DNA from: Escherichia coli
GTDB lineage: Bacteria; Pseudomonadota; Gammaproteobacteria; Enterobacterales; Enterobacteriaceae
DNA length: 64,000 nt
Assembly (NCBI RefSeq): GCF_041248615.1
Contig: NZ_CP158426.1
Strand: one strand, 5' to 3'
Shown here: positions 27,801 to 30,800 of the stretch, one piece after another
Layout of the letters: each line of letters begins with the position of its first letter
Position numbering within the stretch: the stretch's first letter is position 1
Program-made: the position numbers

Positions 27801-30800
27801 TGAACACCACGTCGGTGAAAAGTGGACAGCAATGGGATGCGCCAAATGGCTGGGCTCCCCTGCAATGGGTGGCGACAGAAGGGTTGCAAAACTACGGGCA
27901 GAACGAGGTGGCGATGGACATTAGCTGGCACTTCCTGACCAATGTTCAGCACACTTATGACCGGGAGAAGAAGCTGGTCGAGAAATATGATGTCAGTACC
28001 ACCGGAACAGGTGGCGGCGGTGGCGAATACCCGTTGCAGGATGGCTTTGGCTGGACCAATGGCGTGACGCTGAAAATGCTGGATTTGATCTGCCCGAAAG
28101 AGCAACCGTGTGACAATGTTCCGGCGACGCGTCCACTCAGTGAATCAACAACACAGCCGGTAAAACAAAATGAGGCGGAACCTACGCCTTAACTTTACTG
28201 TATATCGAGCAATGCCATTACGTGCATAAAATTGGCATTGCTCTTTCTTCACCACGAAATACCAAATACCACTCTTTCTACGGTCTATGCCTTTATTTTC
28301 TTTTATTAGAGAAGATTTTAATTTTATTTTATCAACTTGTTAATCATTACACCTCTATTTATATTTTCCCCCACTCCCCATTCTCCCTGACAATTTTCTT
28401 GTGGAACAAAGTGTTATTTAAGAAACAAGCAAATCATTCTGTCTCTTTAGACAAATTTTGACATCAAACATGATCTTTTTCGCTATATGTGTAAGTATAT
28501 AGCGGTTTTAATTATCAGGATATTACTTATGTCACTAACCAGACGGAGGTTTACACAGATTCTTGCGTCGACATTGTTCCTGCATCATCTGCCGTCCTTT
28601 GCACTATCAGTCAAATTCTGGGCCTCACTGACGCTTCCCGAAGCCCAAAACATTACACGCATCGTCAGCGCAGGCGCGCCCGCCGATTTACTATTGCTGG
28701 CTGTCGCGCCAGAAAAAATGGTCGGTTTTTCCTCTTTTGATTTTGCCCGTCAGGCATTAATTCCATTGCCAAAGCACATTCGCCAGTTCCCCAGGCTGGG
28801 ACGACTCGCCGGGCGCGCCAGCACACTCTCGCTGGAAGGGCTTATGGCGTTACATCCCGATTTGGTCGTTGATTGCGGCAATACGGATGAAACCTGGATC
28901 TCCCAGGCACGGCAGGTTAGCGAACAGACACAAATACCCTGGTTATTGCTTAACGGGAAACTGGAACAATCAGCAGAACAGTTAACAACGCTTGGCAAAA
29001 CGTTAGGCGAAGAGCACCGCGCCGCAGAACAAGCCAATCTCGCCAGCCGCTTCGTTGGTGAAGCTCAGGCATTCGCCACCTCACCCGCCGCTAACCTCAG
29101 CTTTTATGCTGCGCGCGGTCCTCGAGGGCTGGAAACGGGCTTACAGGGTTCGTTGCATACCGAGGCGGCGGAATTATTAGGTTTGCACAACGTCGCGCAA
29201 ATAGCCGATCGCCACGGTCTGACACAGGTTTCCATGGAAAATCTCCTGCGCTGGCAGCCGGATATTATTCTGGTTCAGGAGGCCGTTACTGCAGATTTTA
29301 TTCGTCGTGATCCTCTCTGGCAGGGCGTGAAAGCCGTTGCGGAACAACGCATCTTATTTTTAAGTGGCTTGCCCTTTGGCTGGCTGGATGCCCCACCGGG
29401 AATCAACCGTCTTCTGGGATTACGCAGACTTCACGCCTGGCTGGATCCCGCCATCAATCGCCAGTTTAAAAGTGACATACAGCATTACGCCCAACTGTTC
29501 TGGCATTGCCCATTAAGTGACGCCGACTATCAAAAATTGGTGGCGAGCTAATGAGAACCGTAAACGGATGTATTTTGCTGCTGGCAGCTATCAGTATCAC
29601 TTTTGCCGCCGTAAGTGGGGCTTATCATCTCGATATACAGCAACTGCTGGCGCTCATTCTTCGTCAAGAAAATGTTCCTGTGCAGGAACAAATTGTCTTC
29701 TGGCAAATCCGCGTACCGCGTATTCTTGCTGCGCTGTTTCTGGGCGCGGCGCTGGCAGGGGCCGGAACCACCTATCAGGGAATGTTCCGTAATCCCTTAG
29801 TGTCACCGGATATTTTAGGCGTCTCCGCCGGTGCCGGACTTGGTGCCTGCGCGGCAATCCTGTGGGGATTATCCATTGTTTACATCCAGCTGTACGCATT
29901 TTGCGGCGGGCTGATGGTGGTCGCGGGCGTCTGGTTGATTACGCGTCGGGTGACCCGCCACGATCCGATCTTAACCCTGGTGCTGGTAGGCATTGCGTTA
30001 GGAACGTTGTGCGGAGCGGGGATATCGCTAATAAAAACGCTGGCCGATCCTTACACCCAGTTACCGTCAATTACCTTCTGGTTGCTGGGGGGGCTGTCCA
30101 CCGTGACCTTACGCGATCTCTGCTATGCTGCACCGATCATTCTCATAGGCTCCTTGCCCCTGTTTTTTCTCCGCTGGCGCATGAATTTACTCACGCTTTC
30201 CGACGACGAAGCCCGTTCGCTGGGACTGAACGTGACACGTCTGCGCTTTGGATTAATTGTCTGCGCCACACTAATCACCGCCAGCACGGTAGCAATAGCG
30301 GGCATAATTGGTTGGGTCGGCCTGGTCGTTCCGCACATTGCCCGCTTGTTGACCGGTCATAACCATCAGCAGCTGTTGCCCATGGCAATGTGTACTGGCG
30401 CGATTCTGCTCCTGCTTACCGATACGCTGGCACGCAGCATTGGAACAACAGAAATCCCACTTGGCATTCTGACCGCTTTTGTTGGTGCACCGTTTTTCCT
30501 GTTTTTGTTGTTACGCGGAGGTCGCCAGTGACTTTGCTTGCCGTCCGTCATGCGTCTCTGGGTTACTCCCGCCATCCGGTGCTACGCGACGTGTCCTTCA
30601 CCCTGTCGCAAGGAACAATTTGTTGTCTGTTAGGAGCCAATGGTTGCGGCAAAACCACACTCATGCGCTCCATTCTTGGCGTTATACCGTTATTAAAAGG
30701 CGAGATCTTACTGGATAGCCTCCCTGTGCAGACACTCAGCCATCGCCAGCGCGCGCAGGCTATTGCCTGGGTGCCGCAGGCGCACGACGGCATTTTTGCT

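What the first reader, a model, noticed from the sequence alone, without database searches (positions are those of the whole stretch)
28200..28528. A+T-rich promoter region upstream of the uptake operon with Fur-box-like elements
The roughly 330 bp between treA and the first operon gene is strongly A+T-rich and contains partial matches to the Fur consensus GATAATGATAATCATTATC, for example ttgttaatcattac at about 28337-28350 and gattttaattttattttatc at about 28313-28333. A C-rich tract cccccactccccattctccc lies at about 28368-28387. Fur control would fit a metal-uptake role, but these matches are weak and were found by eye.
Basis: seen in the sequence. Interest (0 to 1): 0.35.

Follow-up and report, generated by a model that had tools for sequence, protein, structure and literature searches.

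The report
Molybdenum (ModE) operator, not Fur box
The A+T-rich gap after treA does hold the control region of the uptake operon, but the only real regulatory signal in it is a conserved binding site for the molybdate sensor ModE just before the first gene; this suggests that a gene cluster long labelled "iron uptake" responds to molybdenum rather than iron.

Summary
Both elements vary among E. coli strains and are absent in other genera. In UPEC CFT073, which carries both strings unchanged, none of the operon's locus tags appears in the published Fur ChIP-seq or RNA-seq tables.

What is there is a perfect palindrome, CGCTATAT-N8-ATATAGCG, at 28481-28504, 24 bp before the start codon. It matches the published ModE consensus at 18 of 22 positions, as well as or better than the four known K-12 ModE operators, and 0 of 1000 shuffles reach this. 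The same box sits at the same place in 43 of 44 orthologous gammaproteobacterial operons, down to 44% protein identity, while the flanks diverge.

The operon encodes ModD, and its permease is closest to H. influenzae MolB, whose gene is repressed 10-fold by molybdate. The best reading is that ModE-molybdate represses an accessory, TonB-dependent, Mol-type uptake operon (the prrA-modD-yc73-fepC cluster). ModE binding itself has not been tested.

The parts
26495..28192 (+). treA (periplasmic trehalase), the last core gene before the accessory segment
   Evidence: NCBIfam TreA 1258.9 bits. RefSeq annotation of a 100% identical strain. Homology to K-12 ends at 28193.
28207..28250 (+). Probable treA intrinsic terminator: 11-bp perfect stem GAGCAATGCCA/TGGCATTGCTC (28207-28217 / 28233-28243) followed by TTTCTTC
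   Evidence: Inverted repeat I1. RNA fold -18.6 kcal/mol, z = -4.9, 0 of 200 shuffles as stable. Conserved in all E. coli alleles aligned.
28251..28457 (.). A+T-rich, poorly conserved spacer belonging to the accessory segment. No function is assigned.
   Evidence: Composition. Polymorphic among E. coli and not alignable in E. albertii upstream of about 28380. No Fur, Zur or NikR signal. No Rfam family.
28458..28463 (+). TTGACA, a -35-like hexamer exactly 17 bp upstream of the operator core. Its role is inferred: probably the -35 of the operon promoter.
   Evidence: TTGA lies 23 bp before box position 1 in 26 loci (the window and 25 orthologous loci), mostly Enterobacteriaceae. In Providencia, Proteus and Shewanella a TTGAC -35-like hexamer lies 30-33 bp upstream, followed in Providencia by a 17-bp spacer and a TAATTT-type -10-like hexamer that ends 2-4 bp before the box.
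28479..28506 (.). ModE operator: TTCGCTATATG-TGTAAG-TATATAGCGGT. The core palindrome CGCTATAT-N8-ATATAGCG is at 28481-28504, 24 bp upstream of the start codon.
   Evidence: Perfect 8+8 inverted repeat. Unique in the 64 kb at up to 2 mismatches (0.14 expected from shuffles of the window, 14 of 100 of which contain a match at that tolerance). 18 of 22 matches to the published consensus ATCGCTATATANNNNNNTATATAACGAT (PMC2700814), against 17-18 of 22 for the K-12 modA, moaA, dmsA and napF operators, with nothing else at 5 mismatches or fewer in 168 kb of control sequence. 0 of 1000 shuffles of the gap reach it. Conserved in position in 43 of 44 gammaproteobacterial orthologues.
28517..28520 (+). 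Shine-Dalgarno AGGA, within the conserved TCAGGAT, 8 nt before the ATG
   Evidence: Read directly from the sequence. TCAGGAT is conserved in the Escherichia, Citrobacter, Yokenella, Klebsiella and Raoultella loci shown.
28529..29551 (+). Periplasmic substrate-binding protein (Peripla_BP_2 class) with an N-terminal twin-arginine motif MSLTRRRF. First gene of the operon.
   Evidence: RefSeq start. M1, R5 and R6 are invariant in 18 orthologues. Best solved relative is 4pag (2e-26); there is a weak partial hit to MolA HI_1472 (1.1e-7).
29551..31286 (+). FecCD-type permease (29551-30531) and ABC ATPase (30528-31286; 'fepC' in the literature)
   Evidence: The permease's best solved relative is H. 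influenzae HI1471 (MolB), 222.8 bits, E = 5.9e-65, ahead of FhuB, HmuU and BtuC. NCBIfam.
31296..32959 (+). Class I SAM methyltransferase (31296-32108; apparently 'yc73' in the literature) and ModD (32105-32959)
   Evidence: ModD TIGR01334 503.6 bits against a cut-off of 178.85. ModD has a quinolinate phosphoribosyltransferase fold by sequence.
32985..34955 (+). TonB-dependent outer-membrane receptor ('prrA'), last gene of the operon. Homology to K-12 resumes at 34932.
   Evidence: NCBIfam TonB-dependent receptor families. No close solved relative. Segment boundary.

Best explanation
The functional element in this gap is a ModE operator at 28479-28506. It overlaps or directly abuts the core promoter of a six-gene accessory operon: binding protein, MolB-like permease, ATPase, methyltransferase, ModD and a TonB-dependent receptor.

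Proposed mechanism: when cytoplasmic molybdate is sufficient, the ModE dimer loaded with molybdate binds the CGnTATAT-N8-ATATAnCG palindrome and blocks transcription initiation. When molybdate runs out, ModE releases the DNA and the operon is expressed to bring in a molybdenum (or tungsten) species.

The rest of the gap consists of the treA terminator plus A+T-rich, poorly conserved DNA that came in with the accessory segment. The Fur-like strings are chance products of that composition.

Shown here: the match to the ModE motif, its statistical rarity, its conservation in position across genera, its association with Mo-linked genes, and the lack of any Fur signal.

Inferred: that ModE actually binds, that the effect is repression, where transcription starts, and what the transported substrate is.
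For: 1. Motif match. The perfect palindrome at 28481-28504 matches the published ModE consensus at 18 of 22 positions. The K-12 modA, moaA and dmsA operators match at 17 of 22 and napF at 18 of 22. No other sequence in 168 kb of window plus K-12 control DNA comes within 5 mismatches.
2. Not due to composition. 0 of 1000 dinucleotide-preserving shuffles of the gap reach the observed match. The best shuffle has 5 mismatches to the 28-mer (observed 4) and 2 to the core (observed 0).
3. Phylogenetic footprint. 43 of 44 gammaproteobacterial orthologous loci carry the box with 0-2 core mismatches, mostly 9-34 bp before the binding-protein ATG. These include Escherichia, Citrobacter, Yokenella, Symbiopectobacterium, Serratia, Enterobacter, Klebsiella, Raoultella, Providencia, Proteus and Shewanella. 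Flanks and the spacer diverge, and protein identity falls to 44%.
4. Specificity. In 841 kb of those loci, 15 of the 16 other hits lie in front of the receptor gene of the same system. Thirteen loci have a second box there, and Lampropedia and Hydrogenophaga have one where the receptor gene comes first.
5. Sequence-specific conservation. Positions C1, T4, T6, T8, A21, C23 and G24 are invariant in 41 distinct boxes. Positions 3 and 22 are complementary in only 20 of 41, and there are no compensatory double changes.
6. Link to molybdenum. The operon encodes ModD. Its permease is closest to H. influenzae MolB. In H. influenzae, molB is repressed 10-fold by added molybdate through a factor the authors called unknown (PMC4031551). 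Operons of the molA-molB-molC type from Pasteurellaceae-like metagenome contigs, Pectobacterium and Rhizobium carry the same kind of box before molA.
7. Regulator present. modE is found in 5391 of 5426 complete E. coli genomes.
8. Direction of control. Only 24 bp, which include the Shine-Dalgarno sequence, separate the box from the ATG. No promoter fits downstream of it. This is the same layout as the repressed K-12 modA operator, which lies 19 bp before its ATG.
Against: - No binding or expression experiment for this promoter was found. I could not consult ModE regulon databases such as RegPrecise.
- The -10 element is unresolved. With a 17-bp spacer after TTGACA the hexamer is CGCTAT, which is a poor -10. 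The TATATG alternative would need a 20-bp spacer.
- The binding protein is only weakly similar to MolA (34.7 bits over 74 residues), so molybdate as the ligand is not established.
- The palindrome could also fold as an RNA hairpin (-10 kcal/mol) followed by a U-run.
- The core search pattern was written after I had seen the site. The independent published 28-mer consensus gives the same answer.
Confidence: 0.8

Rival explanations
1. One reading: the operon is iron-regulated, with Fur binding to degenerate Fur boxes at about 28314-28350.
For: The operon looks like a siderophore or haem uptake system (TonB-dependent receptor plus FecCD-type ABC importer). The literature has called it a putative iron-uptake cluster since 1998 (PMC1890555; PMC12928451). 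Some genuine Fur promoters score as low as 8.5-8.6 bits on my matrix (fhuE, fldA), so a weak site cannot be excluded by score alone.
Against: The best site in the gap is 10.9 bits, P=0.16. Consensus-mismatch tests are at chance. The proposed elements are polymorphic within E. coli and absent from E. albertii and other genera. The Fur matrix maximum is below 8 bits upstream of most orthologues. CFT073 keeps both strings intact, yet c1646-c1653 are absent from the Fur ChIP-seq peak table and from the direct and indirect Fur regulon tables, while the neighbours c1645 and c1654 are listed.
Confidence: 0.05
2. The palindrome acts as RNA rather than DNA: a 5'-leader hairpin followed by a U-run that works as an attenuator, terminator or stabiliser, with transcription starting further upstream (for example from the TTGTTA-17-TATATT match at 28337-28365).
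For: The consensus scan flags 28480-28505 as terminator-like, with an 11-pair stem followed by TTTTAATTAT. The RNA fold is -10 kcal/mol, z = -3.6. A 9-of-12 promoter-like match exists at 28337-28365.
Against: Across 41 distinct orthologous boxes the stem positions keep their identity rather than covarying, and there are no compensatory double changes. Positions 3 and 22 pair in only 20 of 41. T-to-C changes on the right arm create A-C mismatches. The stem has only 3 G-C pairs. The conserved bases are exactly those of the ModE consensus. The upstream promoter-like match is no more than chance (2 found, 1.5 expected) and is not conserved. No Rfam family matches, including the Moco riboswitch.
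Confidence: 0.05
3. The palindrome is a real operator, but for a regulator other than ModE that recognises a similar TATAT-rich inverted repeat.
For: No binding data exist. A+T-rich palindromes are bound by several families of regulators.
Against: The same pattern finds only the four known ModE operators in the K-12 control DNA. The box travels with ModD and MolB-type genes across alpha-, beta- and gammaproteobacteria. No regulator gene is part of the conserved operon.
Confidence: 0.07

Closest known systems
E. coli K-12 modABC operator (ModE-molybdate repression)
   Same: It has the same 24-bp core, CGnTATAT-N8-A(T/C)ATAnCG. Its quality against the consensus is comparable: 17 of 22 for modA against 18 of 22 here. 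The position is also the same, immediately upstream of the first gene's start codon: 19 bp for modA and 24 bp here.
   Different: It controls a different, strain-variable operon with a TonB-dependent receptor and a type II (BtuCD/MolBC-like) importer, not the type I ModBC importer. The site here has never been footprinted, and its promoter elements are not mapped.
Haemophilus influenzae MolBC-A (HI1470/HI1471/HI1472), the low-affinity molybdate/tungstate type II ABC importer
   Same: HI1471 is the closest solved relative of the permease (E = 5.9e-65). molB transcription is repressed 10-fold by molybdate (PMC4031551). Operons of the molA-molB-molC type from Pasteurellaceae-like metagenome contigs, Pectobacterium and Rhizobium have a ModE-like box before molA.
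   Different: The E. coli operon adds a methyltransferase, ModD and a TonB-dependent receptor, and lacks the ModA-like fourth gene found in the Haemophilus type. Its binding protein is only marginally similar to MolA, so the ligand may differ.
The prrA-modD-yc73-fepC cluster of UPEC CFT073, also called O-island 55 / S-loop 83 of O157:H7 and GR9 of APEC BEN2908
   Same: This is the same locus: the same genes between ymgE and treA, with a 93% identical gap in CFT073.
   Different: The papers I could read describe it as proposed or possibly iron uptake. None mentions ModE or molybdate control.
Fur-repressed TonB-dependent siderophore or haem uptake operons (fhu, fep, fec, chu)
   Same: The general architecture matches: an outer-membrane TonB-dependent receptor plus a periplasmic binding protein and a FecCD-type ABC importer.
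   Different: There is no Fur box above chance, no conservation of Fur-like sequence, and no entry in the CFT073 Fur regulon tables.

Membership tests
ModE operator (molybdate-responsive regulon) | Inverted repeat matching the consensus ATCGCTATATA-N6-TATATAACGAT | tested here: met
   18 of 22 specified positions match and the core has 0 mismatches. This equals or betters the K-12 modA, moaA, dmsA and napF operators. 0 of 1000 shuffles reach it.
ModE operator (molybdate-responsive regulon) | The site is conserved upstream of orthologous genes in other species while the flanks diverge | tested here: met
   43 of 44 gammaproteobacterial loci have it. There are also boxes before the receptor gene in 13 loci and in two Burkholderiales.
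ModE operator (molybdate-responsive regulon) | The cognate regulator ModE is encoded in the genome | tested here: met
   modE is found in 5391 of 5426 complete E. coli genomes. It was not checked specifically in the source strain of the window or in the other genera.
ModE operator (molybdate-responsive regulon) | The controlled genes have a link to molybdenum | tested here: met
   ModD (TIGR01334, 503.6 bits) is in the operon, and the permease is closest to MolB.
ModE operator (molybdate-responsive regulon) | Molybdate-dependent binding by ModE and ModE-dependent expression | not testable with these tools
   The only evidence is indirect: a 10-fold repression of the related H. influenzae molB by molybdate (PMC4031551).
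Fur box / Fur regulon | A match to the Fur matrix at the level of known sites and above chance | tested here: not met
The best hit is 10.9 bits (P=0.16). Known promoters have a leave-one-out median of 14.2 bits.
Fur box / Fur regulon | Conservation of the proposed site among strains and orthologues | tested here: not met
   There is an indel and a substitution within E. coli, and the elements are absent in E. albertii and beyond.
Fur box / Fur regulon | Fur occupancy or fur-dependent expression in vivo | tested here: not met
   Published CFT073 data list no c1646-c1653 entry among Fur ChIP-seq peaks or in the Fur direct and indirect regulons (PMC7157518 tables S1-S6). CFT073 has the same Fur-like strings. 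This is negative evidence from table look-ups only.
MolBC-A type molybdate/tungstate importer | Permease homologous to MolB (HI1471) | tested here: met
   222.8 bits, E = 5.9e-65. It is the top solved relative, ahead of FhuB, HmuU and BtuC.
MolBC-A type molybdate/tungstate importer | Binding protein homologous to MolA (HI1472) and able to bind molybdate or tungstate | tested here: inconclusive
   There is only a 74-residue local match (34.7 bits, E = 1.1e-7). The best solved relative is the uncharacterised 4pag. Ligand binding cannot be tested here.
Moco or other riboswitch in the leader | A match to an Rfam covariance model | tested here: not met
   In 27800-29000, on both strands and at E up to 10, there are only three chance-level snoRNA or CRISPR hits far below their gathering scores.

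The most novel reading that the evidence does not exclude
The cluster that has been listed for 25 years as a putative iron-uptake or virulence-associated system of ExPEC and EHEC (prrA-modD-yc73-fepC, O-island 55) may instead be a ModE-controlled, TonB-energised acquisition system for molybdenum or tungsten. On this reading the outer-membrane receptor and a MolBC-type importer take up a Mo/W species, possibly a chelate, and the methyltransferase and ModD process it in the cytoplasm. That would be an outer-membrane, energy-dependent route for Mo in Enterobacterales. ModE would also be the 'unknown factor' behind molybdate repression of the Haemophilus mol operon.
Probability: 0.45. Interest if true: 0.7.

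Novelty: new member of a known kind. Interest (0 to 1): 0.5.

Why it matters
- The operon is present in about 40% of complete E. coli genomes (2149 of 5426), including UPEC CFT073, APEC and O157:H7. RefSeq annotates its binding protein as an 'iron ABC transporter' component, and the papers I could read cite the cluster as proposed or possible iron uptake.
- If ModE controls it, annotation and interpretation of the cluster shift from iron to molybdenum or tungsten. Those metals feed the nitrate, DMSO and TMAO reductases and the formate dehydrogenases.
- It also gives a concrete candidate, ModE at a defined box, for the unidentified regulator of the well-studied MolBC-A transporter.
- It makes a question directly testable: whether enterobacteria have TonB-dependent molybdenum uptake.
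- For the scan itself, it shows that by-eye Fur matches in A+T-rich DNA are unreliable.

Tried and rejected
- Fur: a 19-bp matrix built by seeded iteration on 17 K-12 Fur promoters, plus 19-mer and 7-1-7 consensus mismatch counts. No signal in the gap.
- Zur and NikR consensus scans: at chance. These consensus sequences were taken from memory.
- Rfam at a permissive threshold over 27800-29000: nothing, so no Moco or cobalamin riboswitch.
- FNR-like reading of TTGACATCAAACAT (28458-28471): 3 mismatches to TTGAT-N4-ATCAA, the same as five other places in the gap. The genuine dmsA FNR site has 1 mismatch. Not pursued.
- RNA-hairpin reading of the palindrome: rejected for lack of covariation.
- sigma-70 scan: 2 promoter-like matches against 1.5 expected, and neither is conserved. 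I could not fix the -10 element.
- Literature: the search on the locus tags Z1961-Z1966 returned only noise. 'Molybdophore + TonB' and the ModE-regulon searches gave nothing on this operon. Tirado-Lee 2011 and Guyer 1998 are not held.
- The 79-aa ORF at 28222-28461 and the in-frame upstream ATG at 28487 listed by the ORF tool were discarded. The conserved start is 28529.
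Full report
**Context.** The window is E. coli chromosome. treA (26495-28192) is followed by six co-oriented genes:
- a periplasmic binding protein (28529-29551)
- a FecCD-type permease (29551-30531)
- an ABC ATPase (30528-31286)
- a class I SAM methyltransferase (31296-32108)
- ModD (32105-32959)
- a TonB-dependent receptor (32985-34955)

A 411-bp query spanning the gap (28150-28560) matches 2149 of 5426 complete E. coli genomes. Compared with K-12, homology stops at 28193 and resumes at 34932, and K-12 carries ycgY in place of this segment. The whole gap therefore belongs to an accessory segment. In the literature this segment is the prrA-modD-yc73-fepC cluster, also called O-island 55 / S-loop 83 in O157:H7 and GR9 in APEC. 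It is described there as proposed or possibly iron uptake (PMC1890555; PMC12928451).

**Checking the observation.** All three strings are present, one of them offset by a single base. The 336-bp gap is 31.5% G+C, among the most A+T-rich 0.35% of same-size windows in the 64 kb.

**Testing Fur.** I fetched 17 Fur-controlled K-12 promoter regions: fepA-fes, fepD-entS, fepB-entC, fhuA, fhuE, fiu, cirA, fecA, fecI, tonB, exbB, feoA, sufA, ryhB, fur, fldA and sodA. From these I built a 19-bp matrix whose consensus comes back as GATAATGATAATCATTATC.
- In the gap the best hit is 10.9 bits at 28498-28516, and 16% of dinucleotide-preserving shuffles do as well.
- Known promoters have a leave-one-out median of 14.2 bits. 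The window's only strong Fur-like cluster is elsewhere, at 17440-17512.
- Consensus mismatch tests for Fur, Zur and NikR are at chance.
- Among E. coli alleles the first 'Fur-like' element is an ATTTT repeat with a copy-number polymorphism. The second carries a substitution in O157. Neither aligns in E. albertii.
- UPEC CFT073 has the operon with both strings intact. None of c1646-c1653 occurs in the Fur ChIP-seq peak table or the Fur direct and indirect regulon tables of Banerjee et al. 2020, although c1645 and c1654 do (PMC7157518).

Fur control is not supported.

**What is there instead.** The gap contains two perfect inverted repeats.
- The first, 28207-28243, is a stable hairpin (-18.6 kcal/mol) followed by a T-rich run. 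It is the likely treA terminator.
- The second, CGCTATAT-N8-ATATAGCG at 28481-28504, ends 24 bp before the ATG.

The second repeat fits the ModE consensus ATCGCTATATANNNNNNTATATAACGAT (quoted in PMC2700814) at 18 of 22 positions. The same scan of K-12 DNA recovers the modA, moaA and dmsA operators at 17 of 22 and the napF site at 18 of 22. Nothing else in 168 kb comes within 5 mismatches. No shuffle of the gap out of 1000 reaches the observed match. The site is unique in the window.

**Comparative evidence.** A scan of one genome per species with an alignment of the binding protein returned 49 loci.
- The six-gene order is conserved through Enterobacterales. Shewanella, Erwinia phyllosphaerae and Klebsiella sp. 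BIGb0407 lack ModD. The alpha- and betaproteobacterial relatives lack the methyltransferase and ModD.
- 43 of 44 gammaproteobacterial loci have the box with 0-2 core mismatches, mostly 9-34 bp before the ATG, while the surrounding sequence and the central spacer diverge.
- In 841 kb of these loci there are 16 further hits. Fifteen lie directly upstream of the receptor gene of the same system: a second box in 13 Providencia, Proteus, Serratia and Shewanella loci, and one each in Lampropedia and Hydrogenophaga, where the receptor gene comes first.
- The logo of 41 distinct boxes reproduces the ModE consensus. It shows invariant bases rather than covariation, and positions 3 and 22 are complementary in only 20 of 41. 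This argues for a protein-binding site and against an RNA stem, even though the sequence can fold (-10 kcal/mol) and is flagged as terminator-like.

**Link to molybdenum.**
- ModD is a family defined by its association with molybdate transport genes.
- The permease's closest solved relative is H. influenzae HI1471 (MolB), E = 5.9e-65.
- Rice et al. 2014 showed that molB is repressed 10-fold when molybdate is added. They attributed this to an unknown factor (PMC4031551).
- I retrieved operons of the molA-molB-molC type via relatives of HI1471. Each has a ModE-like box before molA:
  - a metagenome contig whose MolB is 96% identical to HI1471, with 2 core mismatches
  - a second contig from a pasteurellaceal lineage, with 2 core mismatches
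  - Pectobacterium, with 1
  - Rhizobium, with 1, followed by a weaker second box
- modE itself is a core E. coli gene, found in 5391 of 5426 genomes.

**Mechanism.** The box lies 24 bp before the start codon, and the Shine-Dalgarno sequence sits in between, so no promoter can lie downstream of it. The operator must overlap or follow the promoter, as at modA (19 bp before its ATG), where ModE represses. A TTGA motif sits exactly 23 bp before the box in 26 loci. In Providencia, Proteus and Shewanella a TTGAC -35-like hexamer lies 30-33 bp upstream; in Providencia it is followed by a 17-bp spacer and a TAATTT-type -10-like hexamer that ends 2-4 bp before the box. So in both layouts ModE would sit on the -10 and start region. 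The exact -10 element in E. coli is unresolved: CGCTAT at a 17-bp spacing is poor, and TATATG would need 20 bp. An FNR-like reading of TTGACATCAAACAT is no better than chance.

I infer repression by ModE-molybdate and derepression under Mo starvation. Binding, direction of control, transcription start and substrate are all untested.

**Comparison with what is known, and novelty.** The element is an ordinary member of a well-known class, the ModE operators. I found no paper in the held library that assigns it to this operon. The papers I could read that name the cluster treat it as iron-related. I could not consult regulon databases. The binding protein is only marginally similar to MolA, and the receptor has no close solved relative. 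So 'Mol-type' describes the permease and the regulation, but not necessarily the ligand.

**Verdict.** The finding as written (Fur boxes) is not real. The gap is nonetheless the operon's control region, and the signal in it points to molybdenum.

Noticed in passing
window 17440-17512 (ychF-ycgV intergenic region): This is the only strong Fur-like cluster in the 64 kb. GAAAATGATAACCAGTATC scores 17.9 bits, with overlapping 10.8-bit sites (GATAACCAGTATCATGATA, AAAAATGAATATCGATGTT). It lies about 480 bp upstream of the ycgV autotransporter gene.
   Followed up: partly
L040:13548, L044:6077, L045:9061, L046:12740, L047:13574, L048:13552, L050:13571, L051:13548, L052:13704, L055:13572, L063:13422, L064:13569, L067:4881: In Providencia, Proteus, Serratia and Shewanella the operon carries a second ModE-type box, just upstream of the TonB-dependent receptor gene. 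This suggests a separately controlled internal promoter. E. coli has only 25 bp between modD and the receptor gene, and no second box.
   Followed up: partly
L059:5888 (Lampropedia), L060:6171 (Hydrogenophaga); L078:4863 and 4887 (Rhizobium); L079:4899 (Pectobacterium); L072:4900 and L074:4922 (Pasteurellaceae-like metagenome contigs): ModE-type boxes also precede related MolB-family transporter operons with other gene orders in beta-, alpha- and other gammaproteobacteria. These include operons of the experimentally studied Haemophilus mol type, whose regulator was reported as unknown.
   Followed up: partly
window 28194-34931 versus K-12 (L076): The gap and all six genes form one 6.7-kb insertion/deletion relative to K-12. 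K-12 has a 622-bp segment with ycgY at the same place. The left junction is exactly at the treA stop codon and the right junction is 24 bp before the receptor gene's stop codon.
   Followed up: yes
L019 (JAIJJM010000486.1, labelled 'MAG: Collinsella sp.'): This 2.5-kb contig assigned to an actinobacterial metagenome bin is 98-100% identical at the protein level to the E. coli operon's first three genes. It is almost certainly a misbinned Escherichia contig.
   Followed up: no
window 28529-28560 (N-terminus of the binding protein): The protein begins MSLTRRRFTQ, a twin-arginine motif, and R5 and R6 are invariant in 18 orthologues. This suggests export in a folded state, possibly loaded with a cofactor, through the Tat pathway. 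That is unusual for siderophore-type binding proteins.
   Followed up: no
O157:H7 TT12B has one more unit.
   Followed up: yes
L071 (O157:H7 TT12B) and PMC1890555: treA next to the operon is frameshifted in O157:H7. It is annotated as a pseudogene in TT12B and split into ECs1701 and ECs1702 in Sakai.
   Followed up: no
L037 and L038 (Affinibrenneria salicis), L036 (Citrobacter braakii ATCC 51113): Affinibrenneria has two copies of the locus on one scaffold (the same contig in opposite reported orientations), with the box 252 bp rather than about 25 bp before the ATG. C. braakii is the one gammaproteobacterial locus with no box; its match starts at residue 37, so its 5' end may be disrupted.
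   Followed up: no
window 28458-28471: TTGA(Y) is conserved exactly 23 bp upstream of the box in 26 loci (the window and 25 orthologous loci), mostly Enterobacteriaceae. It is followed by a loosely conserved nnCA(A/T) four bases later. This is either the -35 hexamer of a promoter with a poor -10, or half of an activator site. It is not resolved.
   Followed up: partly
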